64,000 nt of DNA, taken from assembly GCA_016183565.1 (NCBI GenBank), contig JACPEJ010000001.1, positions 550,479 through 614,478 of the forward strand, given 5' to 3'. Position 1 is the stretch's first letter; every line of letters begins with the position of its first letter. This stretch comes from Candidatus Blackburnbacteria bacterium (lineage in GTDB: Bacteria; Patescibacteriota; Microgenomatia; UBA8517; UBA10165). Below the pieces are notes generated by a model. It was not told the DNA's origin. It searched no databases and worked only from the letters and a program-made list of their open reading frames with translations. Made by a program: the position numbers and the translations under genes. Shown here one piece after another: positions 33,402-43,431 of this stretch.

Positions 33402-34934
33402 TTAAAGAACCGGAGAGGGTACGAGTTGTAGACAATTTTCGAGTCGCGACCGCAAGCTCCTCAATTTATCTTCATTTTTCTTCAAAAATTCATAAGCTTT
33501 ATTGTCTGATGAAACCCATGCTCCAATTTTTCTTAGGCCTTTTTCTTGGTTTTTTTCGAGAGTAGAAAGTCGAAACTCTAAGTTTGATATTGCGTCAAAT
33601 CCGTCCCCGTCGCAAGAGGTTGAGTAATAGTCTAAAGCGTCTTCCCAACCTAACCAAGCATCGTTTGAGATGTCAGGTCGAGTAACATAGGCGTGATCTA
33701 CTTTATATCCTAGGTTTGGCTTTTTAACTATTCCCACAAGATAATCAGTATTGGCAAAATTCATAATAAAAGCAACAAGGACTGTGTTGAGAAATACTAA
33801 ACCAGCAATCTTTTCTTGGGCAATTTTTCCGTACAATCTTGCCAAAAACACAAGGAGGACTCCCAAAAGCCAAATACTTAGGAATATCCCCAAAACTCGT
33901 GCTTGAGTAAAACCAAATTCGGCTTGGTAAAGGTAAACTCTTCTAAAAGCAGAACCCAGAAGGAGAAGGACTTCAAAGATGAAAAGATAGGCAACTCCCA
34001 ACTCGCCAAAAATTTTCTTACCGCCTTCAGTCTTTTGTACCAAAACATAAACCAAAGGCAAACTTACAAAACTAACTAAGATTAGCTCGAAAAATCCTTT
34101 CCTGGTGTACTCAGAAAGGCTAATTTGCATTTTTTCTAAGAGATCCTTGCCTGCAAAAAGTTCTTGGGCTTGTACTAAAAGAAAAAGTGCAATAATAAGT
34201 GAGGCCGCGGTAGTAGCAACAAGAACTGATACTTTGTGTTTTCCGATCTCTTTAATCAAAGAAAATTCTTTAAAACTGTCTTTTTGAGGGCGCAATAGAG
34301 TTGAGAATAGCCCGAAGACAAAAATACTTTCTATTATTCTCTTGAGTGCTCTTGTGGACAGCTCTAATTTAAAATTGCTTAAGATGTTTTGAAAATATCT
34401 TGCAAAGAGTGGGTCCGCTTGGATAAATAAATAGGTAAATAGAAAAACCAAAATTGTGCCCAAAAGGGCTCCTCCTAAAAGTTGAGAGATATTTATAGGA
34501 CATCTTTTGGAAGCAGGGATCTTATTAATAGCAGGCACAAGGTCACTCCAGGAGTGCCCGATTTGCACAATTGCTCGCACGATGTAAAGAATTGGGGCAA
34601 GGATTAGTGTTTTAATGGTTAGTGGCTCATCTGGTTCTCTTGAGCGAACTATTGCTAAAACATTTAGGAGATAAACTAAAACAATTGTTATAAATCTTCC
34701 GGGCTCAAAGCTTCTGAACGCAAGAAATATAGACAGTCCAACGCTTGCTAACAAGTAAAATGCGCTTTTTTTATTTTCCCCAACTTGTGGAATAAAAATA
34801 AGTAAGGACAACACAAAGAGGGAATTTAAGATAGGAAGGCCTAAACCCCAACGATTATCAAGAAGGAACAAGATATAAAAAAGAGTTAGGAGAAGTACAA
34901 CAACAAGCCGCGTTTTTCCCTTACCCTTTATCAA
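33402..34934 (-). CDS. Polytopic membrane protein with C-terminal extracytoplasmic domain (hypothetical)
   Basis: ~12 TM helices followed by a soluble C-terminal region. No catalytic motif assigned. Confidence 0.45.
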   Translation of the reverse strand: MIKGKGKTRLVVVLLLTLFYILFLLDNRWGLGLPILNSLFVLSLLIFIPQVGENKKSAFYLLASVGLSIFLAFRSFEPGRFITIVLVYLLNVLAIVRSREPDEPLTIKTLILAPILYIVRAIVQIGHSWSDLVPAINKIPASKRCPINISQLLGGALLGTILVFLFTYLFIQADPLFARYFQNILSNFKLELSTRALKRIIESIFVFGLFSTLLRPQKDSFKEFSLIKEIGKHKVSVLVATTAASLIIALFLLVQAQELFAGKDLLEKMQISLSEYTRKGFFELILVSFVSLPLVYVLVQKTEGGKKIFGELGVAYLFIFEVLLLLGSAFRRVYLYQAEFGFTQARVLGIFLSIWLLGVLLVFLARLYGKIAQEKIAGLVFLNTVLVAFIMNFANTDYLVGIVKKPNLGYKVDHAYVTRPDISNDAWLGWEDALDYYSTSCDGDGFDAISNLEFRLSTLEKNQEKGLRKIGAWVSSDNKAYEFLKKNEDKLRSLRSRLENCLQLVPSPVL

Positions 34935-34992
34935 TGTGTATTAACTATACCAGTCTTGGTCAACCTGCCGCAAGAAAGTTGCTACAATCTTG

Positions 34993-35046
34993 AGGTGTCG
35001 TATCTGATCCACCCCCGAGGTGGATTTCGCCTTACACCTCTGGAGC
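34993..35046 (+). repeat. REP-like element pair (gtgtcgtatctgatccacc-hairpin family)
   Basis: gaggtgtcgtatctgatccacccccgaggtggatttcgccttacacctctgg. The 19-nt core is shared with the intragenic copy at 55470-55505. Confidence 0.5.
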
Positions 35047-35125
35047 CAGAAGATTTTCTAATGTGACGATTATATTATTAAGGGTAAAAAGAGAGTCATA
35101 TTTATGGTATACTAACAGGTGGAAT

Positions 35126-35199
35126 CGGGGAGTAGCTCAGTTGGCTAGAGTGCGCGGTTTGGGACCGTGAGGTCGGAGGTTCGAGTCCTCTCTCCCCGA
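35126..35199 (+). tRNA. tRNA-Pro (TGG)
   Basis: CGGGGAGTAGCTCAGTTGGCTAGAGTGCGCGGTTTGGGACCGTG... has anticodon loop TTTGGGA, T-loop TTCGAGT and acceptor CGGGGAG/CTCCCCG. Confidence 0.85.
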
Positions 35200-36889
35200 C
35201 TGAAAGTGAATCCGCAAAATTGAGCCTGGAGTGGCTCTGCGCGGGAGGGGTCGCGCAGAGCTCTGCAAAGCCACTTTTATACGAGACTGCAAGTTGCCGA
35301 TTAGTCAAAAAGAAGTTCGAGCCGACAGTTTTTCCGAAGAATGCTAATTCTTCGGATGTATTTTTTGTGCGCGCGATTTTTGCGCACGAAAGTGCGCTAC
35401 CAATGAAGTTTTTGAAAGGTTCGAGCCAACTCGAACCATTTTGTTTTATTTTTTAATTTTTCTTCGAAAAATTCGTTCTTTTTATTTTTATAAACATCAG
35501 GTTCAATAATTCCTTCTAAGTAACAATCAAGTAGTTTATTAAGTTTTATATCCAAGTCTTTTAATTTTGTTTGGAGTTTTTCAATGTTCTCATGAATGGA
35601 TACAGTTTCTAATTTTTCATCTTCATCTAACCATTTATACCAATCCTTAGCCCAAGTTTCTGGTAGAGCTACATCATCAATGGCTTTTCTAAATTGGGTT
35701 TCAAGTTCTGGCTCGGAGATGTAGGGCTGATTACAAGGTTTTATTTTCTTAGTACATCTATAGTAGATATACTCAACAGTTCGATTTGTCCCTTTATAGA
35801 ATTTTTTGTGGGATTCAGCAGTGATAGTTGCTCCACACTCACCACATCTCATTAAACCCATAAAAGCAAAATTATACCTTCTTTTTTTACGCCTGTCTTT
35901 AAACTCAAGTTGTTTCTGGACTTGCTGAAAAAGCTCTTTAGAGATTGCTACTTTATGAGTACCTTCGTGATATTCCCCGTTATATTCCATAATGCCAACA
36001 TAAAATCTATTAGCTAAAATTCTGCGGATTTCATTGATATGCAAGGGCTTACTATTTTTTCTTTTAAGGTTGAATTTATGGAGAAGAAAGGCAATATCAG
36101 TAAATGTTTTATTTCCCTCCGCAAACAGTTCAAACGCTTTTTTAATAGCTCTTAATTTCTCTGGTTCAACATCTATCCCTCTAGTTTTTGGATTATTGAT
36201 ATATCCAAAAGGAGCTTTACCAGGATAAACACCATTTCTTAATTTTTGTCTTAGCCCTCTTTTTACATTTTCTGATAAGTTGTCTACATAATATTTTGAT
36301 TGGCCAAAAGCGATATTTAACATGAATTTTCCTTGAGGAGTATTCTCGAACCAAGAAGTTGGAAATTTTAAGTCCTTCAATTTCCCAGTATCTAAAAGGT
36401 AAATTATTTTTCCACCATCAATACTATTTCTTGCCAATCGGTCGGGATGCCACGCAATAATCCCACTTACTTGTTGTTTTTCAATCTTCTTTAATACTTC
36501 AGCAAATTTCTCTCTGCCCGGAACTTTAGCAGTTTTTTCTTCTTCAACAAATTCAGTAATTTCTAAATGTTCTCTTTTAGCATATTCTTTTAGCTCGGCA
36601 ATTTGAGCCTGTATGGACAGAATTTGTTTATCTTTTTCTTCCCTGGACTTTCTACAGTAAGCAATATATTTCATAAAATTATCTCTCTCTTAAAAGTTCT
36701 TTAAGCGAGCTTGCGAGCAGGAATTTCTTTTCTAAGAAATTCCAAAATTTTCGCGTCCTCCCGTTTTTTGTTCTTTTTCACTACGGCAACTTGCAGTCTC
36801 GTATAAAAGTGGCTTTGCAGAGCTCTGCGCGACCCCTCCCGCGCAGAGCCACTCCAGGCTCAATTTTGCGGATTCACTTTCAGTCGACC
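35197..36889. mobile_element. Serine-recombinase module bounded by perfect ~104-bp inverted repeats
   Basis: 35197-35300 is the exact reverse complement of 36786-36889 (cgactgaaagtgaatccgcaaaattgagcctggagtggctctgcgcgggaggggtcgcgcagagctctgcaaagccacttttatacgagactgcaagttgccg). The left repeat starts in the last 3-4 nt of tRNA-Pro. The only gene inside is the recombinase. Confidence 0.7.
35397..36674 (-). CDS. Large serine recombinase (resolvase/invertase catalytic domain + recombinase domain + zinc ribbon)
   Basis: N-terminal MKYIAYCRKSREEKDKQ...IIAWHPDRLARN catalytic domain, a central recombinase domain, and the zinc ribbon CGECGATIT...YYRCTKK. 425 aa. Confidence 0.85.
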   Translation of the reverse strand: MKYIAYCRKSREEKDKQILSIQAQIAELKEYAKREHLEITEFVEEEKTAKVPGREKFAEVLKKIEKQQVSGIIAWHPDRLARNSIDGGKIIYLLDTGKLKDLKFPTSWFENTPQGKFMLNIAFGQSKYYVDNLSENVKRGLRQKLRNGVYPGKAPFGYINNPKTRGIDVEPEKLRAIKKAFELFAEGNKTFTDIAFLLHKFNLKRKNSKPLHINEIRRILANRFYVGIMEYNGEYHEGTHKVAISKELFQQVQKQLEFKDRRKKRRYNFAFMGLMRCGECGATITAESHKKFYKGTNRTVEYIYYRCTKKIKPCNQPYISEPELETQFRKAIDDVALPETWAKDWYKWLDEDEKLETVSIHENIEKLQTKLKDLDIKLNKLLDCYLEGIIEPDVYKNKKNEFFEEKLKNKTKWFELARTFQKLHW

Positions 36890-36975
36890 TTTATCGAAAA
36901 ATCCGAACTCGCTTCAAGTCGAATCGGTAGGCCCGCCAGAGGCGGGCCATCTTATCCGCTCAGCCTTCGGCCCAA
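36886..36975 (+). repeat. Inverted repeat X (left copy); partner at 39046..39140
   Basis: gtcgacctttatcgaaaaatccgaactcgcttcaagtcgaatcggtaggcccgccagaggcgggccatcttatccgctcagccttcggcc is the reverse complement of 39046-39140. It contains the perfect hairpin ggcccgcc-agag-gcgggcc. Confidence 0.7.
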
Positions 36976-37231
36976 ACTCTTAAACTGTCGGCTCGAACGG
37001 GTTGCTTTAGCAACCCCAAAAAACGCGAAAATTTTTTAAAGAACTTTTTCCTTTTTGTTTTTCACTTAAAAGGCGCAACCGGTGGACTCAACAAGAATTG
37101 TGTTCTGTTGTCCGATTGCGCCATTAAAAAACACAATTCATAAAATGTTGAGTCCATGAAAAATATATACTGAAGAATGATAAATTTCAACTGGGATTAT
37201 TTATATCAAAACTAAACAAATAAAAATAACA

Positions 37232-37633
37232 ATGGAACTTAAAACATCTTTGTGCAATACTAAATTTGTGAAGTATAAACTTGTACTAACATTGGCTTTA
37301 ACATTTGGCATTATACCTTCTCTACTTTTGCATAGATTTATTTACGGAATTTCTCATGAAAGTGCTGTATATCTAGAATGCAGATTATTATCAAGCTGTT
37401 CGCATTATTACGAGGGTCTAGCACTAAAATTTGTTTCACTTGTTTATTTAATTTTGTATAGCATAACAGTGCTATACTTTCCTTATAAAATAGCAAGAAA
37501 GGAGAGTACGTCTCTTCTTTCATTGCAAACCATCAAAGAAATGGATCTCAAAAGTATTCTAATCGTAATTTTTGTAAGTTTACTATATCTACCGTTAATC
37601 TTTTTTCTGAGTTCCTCAAATAATCCCTTGTGA
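37232..37633 (+). CDS. Small membrane protein (hypothetical) inside the IR-flanked cassette
   Basis: 133 aa with 3 TM helices. Very AT-rich. Confidence 0.4.
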   Translation: MELKTSLCNTKFVKYKLVLTLALTFGIIPSLLLHRFIYGISHESAVYLECRLLSSCSHYYEGLALKFVSLVYLILYSITVLYFPYKIARKESTSLLSLQTIKEMDLKSILIVIFVSLLYLPLIFFLSSSNNPL

Positions 37634-37705
37634 TGGGTTTTTCCGTCTCTTAATGGCTTTTAACTGAAATTTGACTTTTCCAATAAAATATGTGTAAATT
37701 AAATA

Positions 37706-38044
37706 ATGGCTAATAATAGTGTGAATTCTTCTAGTAGTAAATCCTCGGGCATTAAAACAATAGTCACTATTATAATGTTGTTCTTGCTTTACCCGGTAGG
37801 TGTAATTATGATGTTTGTATGGATGAAGTGGCCAATATGGGTAAAAATTATAACGACCCTTGTAATGTTTTATGTTTTTTTTGTAATTATTGGGGCAGTA
37901 GCGGGGTTAGTAGTTCAGGTAACTGATCCTTATGGAAAAATATTTGAAGCACAGCGTAGGCAATGTACAGCTCAATGCGAAAATGTCCCTAATGCAACTG
38001 CCTGTATGACTGAATGTCTAGAGAAGTTGCGAGCTCCGAAATAA
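37706..38044 (+). CDS. Small membrane protein with Cys-rich C-terminus (hypothetical)
   Basis: 112 aa with 2 TM helices. C-terminal CTAQCENVPNATACMTEC. Confidence 0.4.
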   Translation: MANNSVNSSSSKSSGIKTIVTIIMLFLLYPVGVIMMFVWMKWPIWVKIITTLVMFYVFFVIIGAVAGLVVQVTDPYGKIFEAQRRQCTAQCENVPNATACMTECLEKLRAPK

Positions 38045-38051
38045 ATTTAGA

Positions 38052-38771
38052 TTAAACTACCAAAAAGTATTTTTTAAAAGGTAAGGATATTTGACCTTCT
38101 TCATTTACAAATTTATCCGTAGACAAAGATAAGCATGCAATTTTAGATTTACCATATAGAAATAATAAATGACCACTGTTAGAAGTTGCTGTTAACCAAG
38201 ACTTTTTAATTACTTCAACATTGTGAACTTGCCAAAATAGCTGAAATAAAGTTATTGGGATCATAAGAATTAGTATCATATTGATAACAAATTTAATTGT
38301 TGATAAATCATTAATACCTGTAAATTTATTTAAGAGAAAAGGTCCAAAGAAATATAAGGAGATGCCAATAAGGATCGCGTTTACTAGGTTTTGCAAACGT
38401 CTGTCTACAAAATAATTATTATTAGTCTCTATTAAGAAGGCAGGAACTGGAAATAACTTAAGTTCAAAGCAAAGCTTCTTAGATATAAGTTGGTCATCTG
38501 GGTAAACTTGTCTAATTAGAACTTCAATCGGCCGAAATGGAATAAAGTTATAAAGCCAATCTTTGAATGTAATAATTCCAGATTCTTTAGATTTGAATTT
38601 TTTAATAGCATCCTTGATAGTTTTAGTAGTAAAAAATATTGGAACACCGATAAAAATGACTACAGACATTATTATAAGAACTATTGTTGCTAAATCACGA
38701 AGTTGTTTGTTAGAGGTGGGATTAGAAATTATGATTGCTCCACCAAAAAGCACTATCACAACTAATAACAC
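38052..38771 (-). CDS. Polytopic membrane protein (hypothetical), convergent with the two genes above
   Basis: 239 aa with 5-6 TM helices. Confidence 0.4.
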   Translation of the reverse strand: MLLVVIVLFGGAIIISNPTSNKQLRDLATIVLIIMSVVIFIGVPIFFTTKTIKDAIKKFKSKESGIITFKDWLYNFIPFRPIEVLIRQVYPDDQLISKKLCFELKLFPVPAFLIETNNNYFVDRRLQNLVNAILIGISLYFFGPFLLNKFTGINDLSTIKFVINMILILMIPITLFQLFWQVHNVEVIKKSWLTATSNSGHLLFLYGKSKIACLSLSTDKFVNEEGQISLPFKKYFLVV

Positions 38772-39045
38772 CAGAATAAAAGTTAATAGAAAAGATTTTA
38801 TAGCTTTAGTATAGCAAATCTACTATCTATAATTCTCTAAAAAAAGAGAAGATAAAATCAGTACCGTTCCCCTTAAAATTTCTGCTACAATATCAGGGGG
38901 AGAAAAGTTTTCGCGCACGGGAGGGCGGGGCAAGAAAACATTAAATTGTTTTTGTGTCCTTGTCCGCCATAGGCGGACTATAAATAATAAAAATCGCGCG
39001 CATTTAAAATACTTTCTAAGTATTTTGCAAAAAATACATAGAGCG

Positions 39046-39140
39046 AGGCCGAAGGCTGAGCGGATAAGATGGCCCGCCTCTGGCGGGCCTACCGATTCGA
39101 CTTGAAGCGAGTTCGGATTTTTCGATAAAGGTCGACTAAT
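39046..39140 (-). repeat. Inverted repeat X (right copy)
   Basis: Exact reverse complement of 36886-36975. Ends 8 nt before tRNA-Gly(TCC). Confidence 0.7.
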
Positions 39141-39147
39141 TCAAAGT

Positions 39148-39221
39148 GCGGGTGTAGTTCAATGGTAGAACACCACCCTTCCAAGGTGGATGTGGCAGTT
39201 CGATTCTGCTCACCCGCTCCA
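39148..39221 (+). tRNA. tRNA-Gly (TCC)
   Basis: GCGGGTGTAGTTCAATGGTAGAACACCACCCTTCCAAGGTGG... has anticodon loop CTTCCAA, T-loop TTCGATT and an encoded CCA. Confidence 0.85.
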
Positions 39222-39327
39222 AACCGGACATAAGTCCGGTTTTTTTTGTTTTAGCCAAGGAATACACTTTTCCCCGAGTTCGAGCCTAAATTTTTACTAA
39301 AATTGTTTTAGCCTGGAGAGTTGCAAT

Positions 39328-39348
39328 ACCGGTAATGGGAATCGAACC
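39328..39348 (-). other. tRNA 3'-end-like fragment (T-loop + acceptor 3' strand) without a tRNA body
   Basis: The reverse complement reads aGGTTCGATTCCCATTACCGGTa. The T-loop/T-stem is identical to that of tRNA-Gly(GCC), but no 5' half is present. Possible att-site remnant. Confidence 0.35.
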
Positions 39349-39362
39349 TAAAAGTTAGTTAA

Positions 39363-40133
39363 CTATTTACTCTTCTCTAATTTAAAAAAGTGTTCTTCTA
39401 TCTTTTCTGCTTTTCTCATAACCATTTCATAAACTAAGATTAATGGTGTAATTGTAAGAAGAATTTGTCCGACCTCATCTTCACGCATGCAAGCAATATC
39501 TTTTTGATAGACCATTTTGCCATCAATTATTCCCCAATATGGCTCGAGAGCAAGGTAATTTGGATGGGTAAACTCAGAGAAAAAATCATAACTTTCCAAA
39601 ATATAATCTTTATTTTTTGATCCTATTGCAGTTAGCTGGGCATTCAGTAATTTGTTTACTTCTCTTACATAATCTGCTGAATGGAAAATCTGTGGTGCCT
39701 TAGAAAAAGTAGTTTTGCCAGACATTGTTTTAGTGTTCTGACCCATGGTTGCAACATATAATATTTCCCAAACTTCTTCATGGTTAGTCATTTTTTTATT
39801 GATCTTACGAACCATATGTGCAAGTGCACCAATTGTTTCTATGCATGAGCGAACCATACTGGCCGCTTCTGGATTTTGAGCATTGATTCCAGAAATTAAT
39901 AAGTTCAATTGATGAATTAATTTTATATGAATAATGTTGGTGTAATGAGAAAAATGGTGATACAAGTCGACACTTTTATTACCCGTAGGTTCAGGAGGTG
40001 GAACTATCTTTCTCCTCTTCTTTAGTTGCTTATAAAGACTATCCAATTCAATAAGTTGTTTTTTAAATGAATGGTATTTTTGCCAAGTTTTTTTCATTTT
40101 ATAACAGCGATCCCTATGGCTAAGATGGATCAC
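39363..40133 (-). CDS. Hypothetical protein, divergent from the SIR2-like gene
   Basis: 256 aa with no recognisable motif. Probable start at the internal MKKTWQKY. Confidence 0.4.
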   Translation of the reverse strand: MIHLSHRDRCYKMKKTWQKYHSFKKQLIELDSLYKQLKKRRKIVPPPEPTGNKSVDLYHHFSHYTNIIHIKLIHQLNLLISGINAQNPEAASMVRSCIETIGALAHMVRKINKKMTNHEEVWEILYVATMGQNTKTMSGKTTFSKAPQIFHSADYVREVNKLLNAQLTAIGSKNKDYILESYDFFSEFTHPNYLALEPYWGIIDGKMVYQKDIACMREDEVGQILLTITPLILVYEMVMRKAEKIEEHFFKLEKSK

Positions 40134-40317
40134 TTGTGGGCCATCAGCTCTCTAAAAGTAAGATACCTTCACCACAGCGATCATTCGGTACTAGTATTTT
40201 AACATTTAACTAGGCCTCTTCATAACTAAAGGCTTAAAAAGCCAACAAAACTATGCGATTGATTAACTCTTTGAGTTATATAACGATTTCTAGCTGAGCA
40301 AGCTATAATATGGACAA

Positions 40318-41316
40318 ATGGAAGATTATAAGAAACATATGAGTAATCAGATACCCAAGGAGAAAAACCTAACTATGGGCGCGCCTCATTTAGTTCTCTT
40401 GGGCGCCGGAGCTAGTAAAGCTGCTTTCCCAAATGGTGACGCAAATGGTAAAGAATTGCCATTAACTAAAGACTTGGCTAGAGTATGCAAGCTTGGAGAG
40501 ATTGACCCCCAAGCAGAAAAGGCAAAGGACTTTGAAAGTTACTACTCCGATTTAACAGACACAAAAATCAAAAGCGCAATGGAATCAAGAATATTCGACT
40601 ATTTTTCTTCTTTAAGGTTGCCTACTGAACCTACAATTTACGATTACTTAGTACTTTCACTTAGAAAAAAGGATGTAATTGCCACATTTAATTGGGACCC
40701 CTTTTTATCTCAAGCGGGGCAAAGAAACCATCAAATAGGCTCTATGCCGCAAGTTTTATATTTACACGGCTCGGTGTTTGTTGGATACTGCATGAAAGAT
40801 AAGACAATGGGTATGGCTGGCTACCCATGTAGTAAATGCAATAAACCCTTTACCAGACCTGATTTACTTTATCCCGTTAAAGAAAAGAACTATCAAAAAG
40901 ACGAAATCATAAAAACAAATTGGGACTATTTACAAAAAGTTCTGAAACGGGCCTACATTTTTACAATTTTTGGTTACAGTGCACCGAAAACTGATGTTGA
41001 AGCTATTGATTTACTCAAGAAAGGCTGGGGCGACAAAGCAAAAAGAAATCTTGAAGAAGTAGAAATCATAAATCGACCCGGGGCCGATAAAGACAAGTTA
41101 AGAGAGGTATGGGACGAATTTATACATACACACCATTATGGAGTCATTGATGATTTTTTTAACTCCTGGCTGATAAAACACCCCAGACGAAGTTGTGACG
41201 CTATGTGGGAAACTTTAATGATGGTAAGGCCATATAAAGAAACGCCACCACCGATAACGAAAAATTTGAATGAGCTACAAAAATGGTTTTCAGATAGACT
41301 TACTCAATACGAATAG
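40318..41316 (+). CDS. SIR2-family (sirtuin-like NAD-binding) protein, defence-type SIR2_2-like
   Basis: LVLLGAGASKAAFPNGD (GAGxS Rossmann motif), ATFNWDPFL (cf. TQNIDGL), LYLHGSVFVGYCMKDK...YPCSKC (zinc CxxC pair), IFTIFGYSAPKTD (GTS-like). Confidence 0.65.
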   Translation: MEDYKKHMSNQIPKEKNLTMGAPHLVLLGAGASKAAFPNGDANGKELPLTKDLARVCKLGEIDPQAEKAKDFESYYSDLTDTKIKSAMESRIFDYFSSLRLPTEPTIYDYLVLSLRKKDVIATFNWDPFLSQAGQRNHQIGSMPQVLYLHGSVFVGYCMKDKTMGMAGYPCSKCNKPFTRPDLLYPVKEKNYQKDEIIKTNWDYLQKVLKRAYIFTIFGYSAPKTDVEAIDLLKKGWGDKAKRNLEEVEIINRPGADKDKLREVWDEFIHTHHYGVIDDFFNSWLIKHPRRSCDAMWETLMMVRPYKETPPPITKNLNELQKWFSDRLTQYE

Positions 41317-41606
41317 ACCAAATTTGGCGTTTTTCGTAAAGCGAGAGTCGTCAGTTATGATGACTCTCTACTTATGATTTAAACTGTGTATAGTGTTTAT
41401 TAAAAACCTCATAACTTGGGATATTTAGATATTCTTTCAATTCATTAAGTTGTACAATTAACTTAGGAGTAATGTAGTACCGTAAGCCGATTTTAATGAA
41501 AGAAATAAACGGCAAATCTGGTTGAAGTAGGTATTGTTTGATATATTCATCCAGGCTAAACAGGTTCGAGCAAAGTACGGTGACCAGCTCTGAAAAGTGA
41601 ATAACT

Positions 41607-42443
41607 ATGAAAAAGAATACCTCACTGGCAATTTTTGAGAACTTTAAGATACGCCGTGTTTATGTTGAAAAAACCGAGACATGGTATTTCTCGGTAGTGG
41701 ATATTATTCATGCATTAGATGTAAGTTCTGATGCTAGGAATTATTGGAAAGTATTAAAAAGCAATTTGAGAAAAGAAGGAAGTGAGGTGGTTACAAAAAT
41801 TAACCAACTGAAAATGACAGCCTCTGATGGAAAAAGCTATAAGACAGATGCCACTAACACAGAAACCATCCTTCGCCTTATCCAATCTGTTCCCTCCAAA
41901 AAAGCAGAACCCATAAAACTCTGGCTTGCAAAAGTTGGCTATGAACGTATGCAGGAAATGACTGATCCGGAAAAGGCTCTCAACCGCTCAAGAGAATATT
42001 GGCAAAAGCAAGGCCGAAGTGAAAAGTGGATACAGCAGCGGATGATGAGTCAGGAAACACGAAATAAGCTAACGGACTATTGGAGTGGGCATGGGGTCAA
42101 AAAAGACCAGGAATTTGCTATTCTTACCAATATTATTCATCAGGAGTGGTCTGATCTGTCAGTCAAAGATCACAAAAATTTGAAAGGGTTAAAGACCCAG
42201 AATCTTAGAGATCATATGAGCGAAGCTGAACTAATTTTTACTGCCTTGGCCGAACTTTCTACTCGGCAAATCGCCGAACGCGTCCGGGCAGAAGGGTTTG
42301 ATCAGAATAAAATTCCAGCCAAAAAGGGTGGGAAGATTGCCAAAGATGCCAGAATGGCACTTGAAGAAAAAACAGGGAAATCAGTAATCACCGGAGAAAA
42401 TTTCTTGCCTCACTCAAAAAAAGAAAAGGCGAAGTTTAAATAA
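41607..42443 (+). CDS. Bro-N domain protein (DinD/phage antirepressor-like)
   Basis: The N-terminal AIFENFKIRRVYVEKTETWYFSVVDIIHAL resembles the Bro-N fold. 278 aa. A frameshifted paralog lies at 42857-43431. Confidence 0.55.
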   Translation: MKKNTSLAIFENFKIRRVYVEKTETWYFSVVDIIHALDVSSDARNYWKVLKSNLRKEGSEVVTKINQLKMTASDGKSYKTDATNTETILRLIQSVPSKKAEPIKLWLAKVGYERMQEMTDPEKALNRSREYWQKQGRSEKWIQQRMMSQETRNKLTDYWSGHGVKKDQEFAILTNIIHQEWSDLSVKDHKNLKGLKTQNLRDHMSEAELIFTALAELSTRQIAERVRAEGFDQNKIPAKKGGKIAKDARMALEEKTGKSVITGENFLPHSKKEKAKFK

Positions 42444-42454
42444 AGTAAAATACG

Positions 42455-42736
42455 ATGTGTGAACGAGAGGGCTATCCAATTACCGAAACTCAAATTGAAG
42501 AAGTTAGACCTGATTTAGTTGCTTTAAAATTGCCAAGAGGAGTTTATAGTATGGGTATGGGTGGTGCTCAATTTTATCAAGAAGCAAATGCTGATTGGAA
42601 ACAATCTAATAGAGTCGACAAACCATTTGCTCTTGGCTATAATGACGTAGTTAGGATTGAGGGAAATGCTAATGAGCTTTGGCAAAACGTTAACTATAAT
42701 TGGGATGGAACCCCCAAGAAAACTGATTCGCGCTGA
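42455..42736 (+). CDS. Hypothetical small protein
   Basis: 93 aa ORF starting 12 nt after the Bro-N gene. No motif. Confidence 0.3.
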   Translation: MCEREGYPITETQIEEVRPDLVALKLPRGVYSMGMGGAQFYQEANADWKQSNRVDKPFALGYNDVVRIEGNANELWQNVNYNWDGTPKKTDSR

Positions 42737-42856
42737 TAAATAACTTCATTAACTTCAGGATGATTCTCTTTGTTATCAATATTGTGTAATACAGCTACAC
42801 CAAGAATAACTTCTGGGTATTGCTTAAATATTTCGTCTTTTATAATCAGATTCATG

Positions 42857-43431
42857 TTATTTCTTCAGTAACTTTCTACCCTTCTTCTTGGGTAAATAAT
42901 TTTGTGCAGTTATTACTTTTCTTCCAGTTTCTTTTTCCAAATTAGATCTAGCATCCCCGGCAATTTTACCACCACGTTTTGAGACTTGTTTGTTTTTCTC
43001 AAAACCTTGAGGATGTTCTGTTTTGGTAATTTCTGTGGTGGCTGCTTCACCAAGCTGAGAGAATAAAAGCTCCAGATCGTTCATATGATCTCGCAGATTT
43101 TCCCTCCTAAATCTTTTTATACTGCGATGGAGTAACGCCAAATGTTGCTCTGGATAATTCGGAAAATTCCCTCAGTATTGGCGCAATTCATCTTCTGTTT
43201 ACCACCGCTGGTTTCTATTGCAAGGGTATGTACAATTTGTACCCACCCCTTAGAGAGCTCTGGGTCACGAATTCTCATACGCTGGATATATTGCTTTGAG
43301 TCACTTGAGTCAATCAGTGCTAAAACTACATCCTCAACTACAAACCACCACTCATTTTTATGTATAGTCTTTCTTATTTTTCTATTTCGAAAGATAGCTA
43401 TTTTAGTTGTTTGTACTGTTTCTTGATTCAT
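42857..43431 (-). pseudogene. Split/frameshifted Bro-N (DinD-like) paralog
   Basis: ORF 43117..43431 is a Bro-N domain (IFRNRKIRKTIHKNEWWFVVEDVVLALI). ORF 42857..43141 matches the C-terminal part of 41607..42443 (NLRDHM..ELLF..L.E....EI.....GF..NK...K.GGKIA.DAR..LE..TG..VIT..N.LP). The two halves lie in different frames and overlap by 25 nt. Confidence 0.55.

What the first reader, a model, noticed from the sequence alone, without database searches (positions are those of the whole stretch)
36886..39221. Second, nested inverted-repeat pair encloses a cassette of three small membrane proteins between the recombinase module and tRNA-Gly
Directly abutting the recombinase module, a ~90-nt sequence (36886-36975) recurs as an exact reverse complement at 39046-39140. 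It contains the perfect hairpin ggcccgcc-agag-gcgggcc. The second copy ends 8 nt before tRNA-Gly(TCC).
Between the copies lie three AT-rich genes for small polytopic membrane proteins (133, 112 and 239 aa). Two are on the plus strand and one is convergent on the minus strand.
Inverting this 2.1-kb segment would swap which genes face outward promoters. This is the classic architecture of a recombinase-driven phase-variation switch (shufflon/invertible cassette). Here it serves surface or membrane proteins and is built from unusually long repeats.
The junctions also echo each other: cactttca|gtcgacc versus cactttgaatta|gtcgacc upstream of tRNA-Gly.
Basis: partly seen in the sequence, partly recalled or inferred. 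Interest (0 to 1): 0.8.

Follow-up and report, generated by a model that had tools for sequence, protein, structure and literature searches.

The report
Serine-integrase attachment arms flanking cargo genes
The perfect inverted repeats are two copies of one arm of a serine-integrase attachment site, and the three membrane-protein genes are the cargo of a 3.9-kb mobile element inserted at a tRNA gene; the layout, with a spare inverted attachment site inside the element, recurs in dozens of relatives in ultra-small (CPR) bacteria, I found no description of it, and nothing shows the cargo flipping.

Summary
A 91-nt, 100% inverted repeat (36882-36972 / 39047-39137) encloses three conserved small membrane-protein genes. 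It overlaps by 5 nt the 103-nt pair around the recombinase.

The phase-switch reading is not supported. The recombinase is a large serine recombinase (LSR) whose reading frame runs into antisense tRNA-Pro. The junctions read as:
- attL: tRNA-Pro·X
- a complete attP, inverted and internal: X'·Y
- attR: Y'·flank, followed by tRNA-Gly

The Y arm carries a tRNA T-loop mimic (GTTCGG) 4 nt further from the crossover than the real T-loop. That is the published attP-versus-attB geometry.

In 168 related loci from CPR bacteria:
- 84 have the LSR pair abutting an antisense tRNA, covering 15 tRNA identities.
- 62 have the second pair, around unrelated cargo of 0.6-7.5 kb.
- An internal orientation marker lies beside the internal arm in 50 of 62 and never beside the far arm, so cargo was never seen inverted.
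- The LSR segment occurs in both orientations, rarely.

Arms are 98-100% identical within genomes but 67-92% between them, which indicates concerted evolution.

The window's LSR has a 20-nt frameshifting deletion, so the element is probably immobilised. Why an inverted attP is kept inside is unexplained, and that is the interesting part.

The parts
35126..35200 (+). tRNA-Pro(TGG). Its T-arm to 3' end is the bacterial half-site (B) of the integration target. The T-loop GTTCGA starts at 35179, 18 nt before the core.
   Evidence: ARAGORN and Rfam; spacing.
35197..35201 (.). Core of attL (CGACT). This is the only sequence shared by all three junctions, so the crossover lies within it, at about tRNA positions 71-75.
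   Evidence: Overlap of the repeat arms. In L017 the overlap is only 2 nt, 'GC'.
35197..35299 (.). X arm, the P' half of the attachment site in attL. Its minus strand encodes the conserved last ~34 residues of the LSR (…TNRQLAVSYKSGFAELCATPPAQSHSRLNFADSLSV). It contains a GC hairpin.
   Evidence: homologue C-termini.
35201..36674 (-). Large serine recombinase gene, frameshifted. The 425-aa ORF is 35397-36674; the remaining ~110 codons (35201-35452) are open in another frame. A 20-nt deletion lies at about 35449-35454.
   Evidence: Pfam Resolvase + Recombinase + Zn_ribbon_recom. Homologues are 510-560 aa. Frames; alignment with L001, L002 and L004; tblastn.
35333..35381 (.). Hairpin plus T-run on the + strand (terminator-like for tRNA read-through) and a GCGCGCGATTTTT motif, inside the LSR 3' coding region. 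Imperfect inverted partner of 38989-39024.
   Evidence: (pair I3). The hairpin is kept by compensatory changes in L001 and L004, visible in the alignment. L089 keeps a better copy.
36675..36783 (-). LSR upstream region, with motif AAAATTTTCGCG (36745-36756) mirrored at 37023-37034.
36784..36972 (.). Internal complete attP (X'·core·Y), inverted relative to attL and attR. X' is 36784-36886, the core AGTCG is 36882-36886, and Y is 36882-36972 with hairpin 36930-36948.
   Evidence: LSR homologues that read into Y-type sequence (tails …ETYEKIRT…) match the predicted X'->Y read-through SLSVDLYRKIRTRFKSNR*.
36982..36998 (+). Z' marker AAACTGTCGGCTCGAAC, an exact inverted copy of the LSR codons KTVGSN at 35315-35331. 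It lies just inside the internal Y arm and marks cargo orientation.
   Evidence: 50 of 62 loci beside the internal arm, 0 of 62 beside the far arm.
37232..37633 (+). Cargo gene 1: 133 aa, three hydrophobic segments, no family match.
   Evidence: Conserved in L088.
37706..38044 (+). Cargo gene 2: 112 aa, two hydrophobic segments and a Cys-rich tail, no significant family match.
   Evidence: Conserved in L088.
38052..38771 (-). Cargo gene 3: 239 aa (relatives 249 aa), about 4-5 hydrophobic segments. Only 6 homologues were found among 5.8 billion proteins.
38989..39024 (.). Imperfect inverted partner (81%) of 35346-35381, at the distal end of the cargo.
   Evidence: (pair I3).
39047..39137 (.). 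Y' arm, the P half of the attachment site in attR. The T-loop mimic GTTCGG starts at 39111, 22 nt before the core CGACT (39133-39137). Hairpin at 39071-39089.
39138..39147 (.). B' flank (AATTCAAAGT), 10 nt: either host DNA downstream of tRNA-Pro or the relic of an older X arm. It shares AATTCA.AG with the X-arm remnant outside attR in L001.
39148..39221 (+). tRNA-Gly(TCC), the host gene immediately outside the element. A terminator-like hairpin follows at 39221-39242.

Best explanation
Window 35197-39137 is a 3.9-kb integrative element. It was inserted by a large serine recombinase (LSR) at the 3' end of tRNA-Pro(TGG).

**The three junctions**
- Left junction, tRNA-Pro·X, is attL (B·P').
- Right junction, Y'·AATTCAAAGT, then tRNA-Gly, is attR (P·B').
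- The abutting arms X'·Y at 36784-36972 are a complete copy of the element's attP (P·P'). It is kept inside the element in inverted orientation, between the LSR gene and the cargo.

**Why there are two inverted-repeat pairs**
- The pair in the finding is the P arm, present once in the internal attP and once in attR.
- The neighbouring 103-nt pair is the P' arm, present in attL and in the internal attP.

**How targeting works**
- The P arm imitates the tRNA T-loop, placed 4-5 bp further from the crossover than the real one.
- This lets the zinc-ribbon domain of the LSR read attP and any tRNA gene as partner sites.
- The crossover lies in the last base pairs of the acceptor stem, so the tRNA stays intact.

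**The cargo and the state of the element**
- The three membrane-protein genes are interchangeable cargo. They are not alternates of a switch.
- The two copies of each arm are kept identical by gene conversion.
- In this genome the LSR is broken by a 20-nt deletion, so the element is probably fixed in place.

**Shown versus inferred**
- Shown: the repeats, the LSR domains, the junction anatomy, its recurrence in relatives, the fixed cargo orientation and the frameshift.
- Inferred: that the LSR made the insertion, the T-loop recognition, and gene conversion.
For: **The recombinase**
- It has LSR domains.
- It is the only LSR in the window.
- In homologues the ORF ends …FADSLSVG and then translates antisense tRNA. 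The X arm encodes exactly that C-terminus.

**Junction analysis of 26 loci**
- The three junctions share only a 2-11-nt core that coincides with the tRNA 3' terminus.
- The flanks outside the far arm are unrelated host DNA. They are often hairpin plus T-run terminators, as expected downstream of a tRNA gene (L041, L051, L061, L070).

**T-loop geometry**
- The T-loop-like GTTCRR in the Y arm is 4-5 nt further from the core than the genuine T-loop in 22 of 24 loci. In the window the distances are 22 and 18 nt.
- This matches the 5-bp shift of the zinc-domain motif between attP and attB half-sites in PMC3783163.
- The two exceptions are loci where the LSR abuts another P-type arm rather than a tRNA.

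**Recurrence in 168 loci**
- 84 have the LSR pair abutting an antisense tRNA, of 15 identities.
- The second pair is present in 62 of the 69 loci with at least 3 kb upstream.
- Cargo is 617-7457 nt and unrelated between loci.

**Mobility**
- Within single 90%-identity LSR clusters, identical C-termini continue into 10 or more different antisense-tRNA tails.
- Tandem accretion occurs at one tRNA in L084.

**Concerted evolution**
- X arms are 100% identical within genomes and 67-92% between them.
- Y arms are 98-100% identical within genomes and 76-85% between them.

**Cargo orientation and the frameshift**
- The orientation marker is fixed in 50 of 62 loci and reversed in none.
- The 20-nt deletion is shown.
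Against: - No empty tRNA-Pro/tRNA-Gly site was found, so insertion at this particular site is inferred, not shown.
- Canonical serine integrases do not recombine attP with attL or attR (PMC3783163). An internal attP should therefore be inert, and its universal retention is not explained by this account.
- The right half-site (X) shows no clear mirror image of the T-loop motif.
- B' appears to be arbitrary DNA, which is unusual for these enzymes.
- Near-perfect arm identity requires recombination between the arms. Such recombination could also invert the segments, and population-level inversion in this organism was not tested.
- No recombination directionality factor or transfer function was identified.
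Confidence: 0.8

Rival explanations
1. One reading: the Y/Y' repeats are the sites of a recombinase-driven invertible cassette (shufflon or inverton type). The cassette phase-varies expression of the three membrane proteins by turning them toward or away from outside promoters.
For: - The inverted repeats are perfect and lie beside a recombinase gene.
- The arms evolve in concert, so they do recombine.
- The sister segment, which holds the LSR, exists in both orientations among relatives.
Against: - The cargo orientation marker is beside the internal arm in 50 of 62 loci and beside the far arm in 0 of 62.
- The HTH gene of restriction-modification cargos sits in the same position and strand in 6 of 6 loci.
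- Cargo is unrelated between relatives.
- The outer genes have 259-275 nt of their own upstream DNA inside the segment.
- The promoter scan is not above shuffled background: 20 sites against 14.0 ± 3.9.
- The enzyme is a large serine integrase, not a Hin-type invertase or an Rci-type recombinase.
- The recombinase is truncated in this genome.
Confidence: 0.06
2. Toggle model. This is compatible with the anatomy above but adds a function. The internal inverted attP exists so that the LSR can recombine it with attL. Both sites carry the same X half, so products equal substrates and the reaction is reversible without a directionality factor. The reaction flips the LSR gene between a tRNA-convergent orientation (silenced, common) and a tRNA-codirectional orientation (expressed, rare). 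The Y/Y' pair is then a by-product of keeping a whole attP.
For: - Both orientations of the LSR segment occur in chromosomal context, with the cargo marker unchanged (L086, L185). The two states therefore differ by inversion of the LSR segment alone.
- Only the LSR segment, never the cargo, is seen flipped. This fits a reaction that needs the tRNA half-site.
- B' is arbitrary, and a foreign attL can be used as a target (L084).
- A terminator-like hairpin on the antisense strand of the LSR 3' end, kept by compensatory changes, sits just inside attL.
Against: - Known serine integrases are blocked on attL (PMC3783163).
- Flipped states are few: 3 of about 160 unbiased loci.
- With 0 of 50 cargo flips, homologous recombination at equal rates cannot be excluded statistically.
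- There are no expression data.
Confidence: 0.2
3. The Y/Y' arms are terminal inverted repeats of an independent transposon-like or MITE-like cassette that inserted next to the recombinase module.
For: - Long terminal inverted repeats bound a gene cassette.
- X and Y arms of some loci carry similar GC hairpins.
Against: - No transposase lies inside.
- There is no target-site duplication.
- There are no other copies of the arms in the 64-kb window.
- The arm always abuts the LSR arm at a core that equals the tRNA 3' end, and it carries the T-loop mimic at attP spacing.
Confidence: 0.02
4. The perfect repeats are an assembly artefact.
For: Many related LSR contigs end at the arms, which shows that assemblers struggle there.
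Against: The same two-pair layout, with species-specific arm sequences, appears in more than 60 independent assemblies from different projects and assemblers. Complete-genome records are among the 168 loci surveyed.
Confidence: 0.01

Closest known systems
Large serine integrase elements (phages A118, φC31, Bxb1; SCCmec Ccr; Tn4451 TnpX)
   Same: - The same three-domain recombinase.
- Hybrid junctions that share only a tiny core.
- The attP half-site motif lies ~5 bp further out than in attB (PMC3783163).
- A small element with cargo.
   Different: - The target is the 3' end of essentially any tRNA gene, through a T-loop mimic. Known serine integrases mostly target protein-coding genes (own knowledge).
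- The ORF runs across attL into the tRNA.
- A complete inverted attP with ~100-nt arms is retained inside the integrated element.
- No directionality factor is evident.
tRNA-targeting genomic islands with tyrosine integrases, including tycheposons (bioRxiv 10.1101/2020.12.28.424599)
   Same: - Small cargo-carrying islands at tRNA genes.
- Tandem accretion at one tRNA.
- Variable cargo.
   Different: - Those use tyrosine recombinases in 910 of 937 cases.
- They duplicate a stretch of the tRNA as direct repeats.
- Here there is no tRNA duplication, the core is 2-5 nt, and the repeats are inverted.
Site-specific inversion systems (Hin/hix, Gin/gix, Min, the R64 shufflon, invertons)
   Same: - Inverted repeats bound segments beside, or around, a serine recombinase gene.
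- As with hin, the recombinase gene lies inside a segment that occurs in both orientations.
   Different: - Those sites are 26-34 bp, and the enzymes are small invertases that need an enhancer, or a tyrosine recombinase.
- In those systems inversion swaps promoters or gene ends.
- Here the arms are ~100-nt att arms, the cargo orientation is fixed, and the cargo is arbitrary.
Tn3/γδ res site as operator between divergent tnpA and tnpR (own knowledge)
   Same: A serine-recombinase site sits between divergently transcribed recombinase and neighbouring genes. In the window it is flanked symmetrically by a shared motif (36745-36756 / 37023-37034).
   Different: Regulation by LSR binding was not tested here. 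res is a resolution site in direct repeat, not an inverted spare attP.
Yeast 2-micron plasmid and plastid inverted repeats (own knowledge)
   Same: The predicted circular form would carry two identical inverted ~190-bp repeats that split it into two unique segments. Repeat identity is kept by recombination.
   Different: Those repeats serve replication or copy-number control and flip at equilibrium. Here one orientation dominates, and no circular form has been shown.

Membership tests
Large serine recombinase integrative element | Encodes a recombinase with a resolvase catalytic domain, a recombinase domain and a zinc ribbon with coiled coil | tested here: met
   Pfam PF00239, PF07508 and PF13408. 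NCBIfam gives sub-threshold matches to XisF and CcrA/B/C.
Large serine recombinase integrative element | Element bounded by hybrid junctions (attL, attR) that share only a short crossover core, with no long direct repeats | tested here: met
   The core is 5 nt in the window and 2-11 nt in 26 loci. The left halves are tRNA versus Y'; the right halves are X versus host flank.
Large serine recombinase integrative element | The attP half-site carries the zinc-domain motif ~5 bp further from the centre than the attB half-site | tested here: met
   GTTCRR is offset by +4 or +5 in 22 of 24 loci; in the window the distances are 22 and 18 nt. The rule is from PMC3783163. This could be tested only for the left half-site.
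Large serine recombinase integrative element | Evidence of insertion: an empty target site, or the same element at different sites | tested here: inconclusive
   The same 90% LSR cluster lies next to 10 or more different tRNAs, and terminator-like flanks lie outside attR. No empty tRNA-Pro/tRNA-Gly site was found.
Large serine recombinase integrative element | Intact, active recombinase in this copy | tested here: not met
   A 20-nt deletion shifts the frame. The 425-aa product lacks conserved C-terminal residues.
Large serine recombinase integrative element | Recombination directionality factor for excision | not tested
   No gene other than the LSR is conserved among the cargos. No search for a directionality factor was made.
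Phase-variable invertible DNA segment (Hin/Gin type, shufflon, inverton) | Segment flanked by inverted repeats | tested here: met
Phase-variable invertible DNA segment (Hin/Gin type, shufflon, inverton) | Both orientations of the segment occur in populations or close relatives | tested here: not met
   The cargo marker is beside the internal arm in 50 of 62 loci and beside the far arm in 0 of 62. Reads of the source sample were not available. The feature is met only for the neighbouring LSR segment (L086, L185).
Phase-variable invertible DNA segment (Hin/Gin type, shufflon, inverton) | Dedicated small serine invertase or tyrosine recombinase acting on short (26-34 bp) sites | tested here: not met
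   The enzyme is a large serine recombinase. The match to the Mpi invertase model is 19.7 bits against a cut-off of 272. The arms are 91 and 103 nt.
Phase-variable invertible DNA segment (Hin/Gin type, shufflon, inverton) | Orientation decides expression, through an outside promoter or alternative gene ends | tested here: inconclusive
   The genes are complete inside the segment, with 259-275 nt of their own upstream DNA. The promoter scan is not above background. No RNA data were available.
Transposon or MITE with terminal inverted repeats | Transposase, target-site duplication, and multiple copies | tested here: not met
   There is no transposase, no flanking duplication and no further copy in the window.

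The most novel reading that the evidence does not exclude
The double inverted repeat marks a previously undescribed class of minimal mobile element in CPR bacteria.
- A serine integrase recognises the universal tRNA T-loop and can therefore enter almost any tRNA gene.
- It carries a spare inverted attP, which it uses with attL as a reversible toggle that needs no directionality factor.
- The toggle flips the integrase's own gene relative to the tRNA promoter, and so controls the element's mobility.
- The Y/Y' pair around the cargo is the structural by-product of that toggle.
Probability: 0.2. Interest if true: 0.8.

Novelty: new variant of a known kind. Interest (0 to 1): 0.6.

Why it matters
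- For this window, a suspected phase-variation switch becomes something more ordinary: the cargo bay of a small, now disabled, integrative element.
- The family behind it is notable. It appears confined to CPR bacteria.
- It uses a serine integrase that seems to read the universal T-loop of tRNA genes.
- It always keeps a second, inverted attachment site whose arms are held identical. I found no account of this in seven full-text searches.
- If the T-loop recognition and the tolerance for any right half-site are real, these enzymes are natural multi-site integrases with a predictable target. That is of interest for genome engineering.
- They would also help explain how small accessory genes, such as restriction-modification systems and membrane proteins, move among organisms that lack obvious plasmids and conjugation.
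- The retained inverted attP poses a clear, testable mechanistic question.

Tried and rejected
**Leads that gave nothing**
- Rfam on 34000-40000 found only the two tRNAs, so the arms are not a known RNA.
- An exact look-up of the window's LSR in the contig index found nothing.
- The empty-site pattern (tRNA-Pro 3' end, 0-30 nt, tRNA-Gly 5' end) had no hit in JGI metagenomes.
- Pfam, PADLOC and NCBIfam gave no significant family for the three cargo proteins.
- The viral collection gave only 19 weak relatives, so the family is not phage-borne.
- Seven literature searches found no description of this layout. They did yield the att-site geometry paper.

**Leads that stayed ambiguous**
- The search for circular forms gave one candidate, L047, with a 51-nt terminal overlap. 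It contains an N gap and an atypical repeat pattern, so I did not rely on it.
- L089 first looked like an inversion joining the LSR 3' end to the cargo. It is better read as a well-preserved copy of the imperfect repeat 35346-35381 / 38989-39024.
- My first T-loop spacing script picked wrong motif hits and was redone.

**Ideas considered and dropped**
- An ssDNA fold-back attP, as in CTX phage or integron attC. Recombination would leave hairpin-capped chromosome ends.
- Origin by tandem or dimer integration. That would give direct repeats, not inverted ones.

Full report

Yes. The repeat finder reports two perfect inverted-repeat pairs that abut:
- I1: 35197-35299 / 36784-36886, 103 nt.
- I2: 36882-36972 / 39047-39137, 91 nt. 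This is the pair in the finding.

A direct reverse-complement comparison confirms 100% identity. It also shows that identity stops sharply at all four inner boundaries. No other copy of either arm exists in the 64-kb window. The next-best inverted repeats nearby are at most 36 nt and at most 83% complementary.

- tRNA-Pro(TGG) (35126-35200) overlaps the first arm by 4 nt.
- tRNA-Gly(TCC) (39148-39221) begins 10 nt after the last arm.
- The three ORFs are as described.
- They are hydrophobic, with 3, 2 and about 4-5 candidate membrane spans.
- They are AT-rich, at 27-35% GC.
- They are conserved as a unit on a Logan contig 84% identical in DNA, so they are real genes.
- They match no Pfam, NCBIfam or PADLOC family significantly.

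The pairs are adjacent, sharing AGTCG. They are not nested.

**2. The recombinase and the first arm**

The gene at 35397-36674 (-) is a large serine recombinase (LSR) with resolvase, recombinase and zinc-ribbon domains.

- It is 425 aa, whereas nearly 8000 homologues, named by their sources as CPR/Patescibacteria, are typically 510-560 aa.
- Their extra C-terminus ends …TNRQLAVSYKKGFAELCAPPPAQSQSRLNFADSLSVG. It then continues as a translation of antisense tRNA.
- In the window that same peptide is encoded on the minus strand of the X arm, in another frame, and runs on into antisense tRNA-Pro.
- Alignment with three relatives shows a 20-nt deletion that shifts the frame.

So the X arm is the 3' end of the LSR gene plus one arm of its recombination site. 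The window's copy is a recent pseudogene, because the downstream 110 codons are still open.

**3. The layout is family-wide**

- Three homologue contigs have the same structure. L001 has a 103-nt 100% pair around the LSR and a 91-nt 99% pair around a different, 4.8-kb cargo: a HindIII-type endonuclease, a methyltransferase and an HTH protein.
- I then fetched 80 loci from GTDB species genomes and 80 from metagenomes and analysed all 168 loci, window included, with one script.
- 84 loci have an LSR-flanking pair whose distal arm abuts an antisense tRNA gene, of 15 different identities.
- 62 of the 69 loci with at least 3 kb upstream have a second pair abutting the first. It encloses 617-7457 nt, and 45 of the 62 pairs are at least 98% identical.
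- Cargo is unrelated between loci apart from recurrent restriction-modification genes.

An assembly artefact is therefore excluded, and the feature is not special to membrane proteins.

**4. What the arms are**

I wrote the three junctions of 26 loci in one orientation:
- J1 = tRNA 3' end · core · X
- J2 = Y' · core · X (internal, and inverted relative to the other two)
- J3 = Y' · core · flank

Findings:
- The core, which is the overlap of the arms, is 2-11 nt and coincides with the tRNA 3' terminus. Examples are GCACCA, TCAC and, in the window, CGACT.
- In L017 the overlap is only GC. This places the crossover at about tRNA positions 71-72.
- J3 flanks are unrelated host DNA. They are often hairpin plus T-run, which is what should follow a tRNA gene.
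- The Y' arm carries a conserved T-loop-like GTTCRR. It lies 4 or 5 nt further from the core than the genuine T-loop in 22 of 24 loci. In the window the distances are 22 and 18 nt.
- Rutherford et al. (PMC3783163) showed that the zinc-domain motif of serine-integrase sites sits 5 bp closer to the centre in attB (positions 11-19) than in attP (16-24). The distances measured here fit those ranges.

Hence J1 = attL (B·P'), J3 = attR (P·B') and J2 = a complete attP (P·P'). The finding's repeat is the P arm, present in the internal attP and in attR. The neighbouring repeat is the P' arm, present in attL and in the internal attP.

The short cacttt similarity in the 10-nt flank may be a relic of an older X arm, as is clearly present outside attR in L001.

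**5. Mobility**

- Within single 90%-identity LSR clusters, identical C-termini run into 10 or more different antisense-tRNA tails. The same enzyme therefore sits at many tRNA genes.
- L084 shows two such elements in tandem at one tRNA-Lys. The second P' arm takes the place of B'. This suggests the right half of the target is not read.
- The family is nearly absent from IMG/VR.
- I did not find an empty tRNA-Pro/tRNA-Gly site, so insertion at this very site is inferred.

**6. Does anything invert?**

- A minority of homologues end in a tail such as …SLSVETYEKIRTSF. This matches the window's predicted read-through from X' into Y, SLSVDLYRKIRTRFKSNR*.
- L086 and L185 show what this means. A sense tRNA abuts X, the LSR reads away from it into X'·Y, and cargo follows. 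The LSR segment therefore exists in both orientations.
- That state is rare: 3 of about 160 unbiased loci.
- For the cargo I used an internal marker. It is a 13-28-nt copy of the LSR codons KTVGSN, at 36982-36998 in the window, and it lies just inside the internal Y arm.
- The marker is beside the internal arm in 50 of 62 loci and beside the far arm in none. It holds the same position in the flipped-LSR loci.
- The HTH gene of restriction-modification cargos is likewise in the same place and strand in 6 of 6 loci.

It also shows that the two LSR states differ by inversion of the LSR segment alone.

**7. Concerted evolution and hairpins**

- X arms are 100% identical within the window, L001, L002 and L004, but 67-92% identical between them.
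- Y arms are 98-100% identical within genomes and 76-85% between them.
- The arms are thus homogenised, most simply by gene conversion, up to boundaries where homology ends.
- Both arms carry GC-rich hairpins. They are kept by compensatory changes.
- Such hairpins are present in 42 of 62 Y arms and 40 of 62 X arms, against 13% of shuffled Y arms. Their role is unknown.
- Around each attP copy there are further imperfect mirror motifs: 36745-36756 / 37023-37034, and 35346-35381 / 38989-39024.
- The latter includes a terminator-like hairpin on the antisense strand of the LSR 3' end. It could replace the tRNA terminator that integration displaced. This is inference.

**8. Mechanism and its limits**

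Best supported: a serine-integrase element whose attP mimics the tRNA 3' half. It is integrated at tRNA-Pro, carries interchangeable cargo, and is now disabled.

Not explained: why a full inverted attP with ~100-nt arms is kept inside every element, although canonical enzymes do not pair attP with attL or attR.

Three ideas remain open:
- A reversible attL × attP toggle of the LSR gene. Products would equal substrates because both sites share X.
- An operator between divergent promoters, as in Tn3 res.
- A second integration site in a two-repeat circle.

The pattern 'LSR flips, cargo never' favours the first idea. With so few flips, however, it does not exclude homologous recombination.

**9. 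Comparison and novelty**

- It works like a serine-integrase island, and it meets the testable membership features of that family, except for an intact enzyme in this copy.
- It fails the tests for a phase-variable invertible segment: orientation heterogeneity, enzyme type and site size.
- It fails the tests for a transposon.
- New relative to what I could find are the tRNA T-loop mimicry with apparently promiscuous tRNA targeting, the ORF running across attL, and the retained inverted attP with homogenised arms.

I rate it a new variant of a known kind. The specific finding is explained in an ordinary way. The family architecture is moderately surprising and directly testable.

Noticed in passing
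window 35397-36674 (-), deletion at about 35449-35454: The LSR gene has a 20-nt deletion relative to L001, L002 and L004 (AATCAATGAAGAATTGGAAC is missing). This gives a 425-aa truncated product. The downstream 110 codons remain open in another frame, so the event looks recent.
   Followed up: yes
window 35333-35356 and 35418-35437 (+): Two terminator-like hairpins with T-runs lie on the antisense strand of the LSR 3' coding region, just inside attL. The first is kept by compensatory changes in L001 and L004 although the encoded peptide differs (EELAFF / SDLAIG / HDLSIM). It may be a replacement terminator for tRNA-Pro.
   Followed up: partly
window 36982-36998 versus 35315-35331; 36745-36756 versus 37023-37034: There are extra small repeats around the internal attP. 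One is a 17-nt exact inverted copy of the LSR codons KTVGSN, which contains a T-loop-like GGCTCGAAC. The other is a mirrored AAAATTTTCGCG / CGCGAAAATTTT motif on both sides. Both recur across the family.
   Followed up: partly
L084 6467-11497: Two LSR elements sit in tandem at one tRNA-Lys: tRNA·X1 [LSR1 <-] X1'·Y [cargo] Y'·X2 [LSR2 ->] X2'·Y2, followed by a type I restriction-modification cargo. New elements seem to enter at the tRNA-proximal junction of resident ones.
   Followed up: partly
L025 9785-11596; L044 348-5773: In L025 the LSR is flanked by two inverted tRNA-Glu genes. In L044 an element lies between the split remnants of an older LSR at tRNA-Leu, with an extra outer 90-nt perfect repeat. 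Both suggest these elements rearrange chromosomes around tRNA genes.
   Followed up: no
protein clusters of P0101, P0117, P0017 and others: The called LSR proteins have variable 10-60-aa C-terminal tails that are translations of antisense tRNA genes. These tails reveal the integration site of each copy from the protein sequence alone.
   Followed up: yes
many loci (for example L053, L054, L073, L116, L148, L150, L161, L183, L187): LSR contigs of 1.6-2.1 kb consist of the LSR segment plus its arms only. Assemblies break at the arms, as expected if the flanks differ within populations, through several tRNA sites or both orientations.
   Followed up: no
L047 (4,636-nt contig): A 51-nt direct terminal overlap suggests a circular molecule. 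It carries an LSR with a Y-type tail and a restriction-modification-like cargo that includes a Vsr-like 138-aa protein. It also contains an N gap and an atypical repeat pattern.
   Followed up: partly
window 39363-43141: Downstream of tRNA-Gly lies a low-GC stretch of unknown proteins (256 and 332 aa, no family hits). It also holds a Bro-N domain protein (41607-42443) and a 94-aa ORF (42857-43141, -). These two share a C-terminal motif (…GGKIA.DAR..LE..TG..VIT..N.LP). This may be another island at the same tRNA cluster.
   Followed up: no
L089 1-45: In a relative 94% identical in DNA, the distal end of the cargo carries a 45-nt stretch 96% identical to the window's LSR 3' region (35336-35381). 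The imperfect repeat 35346-35381 / 38989-39024 is therefore better preserved elsewhere and has decayed in the window.
   Followed up: partly
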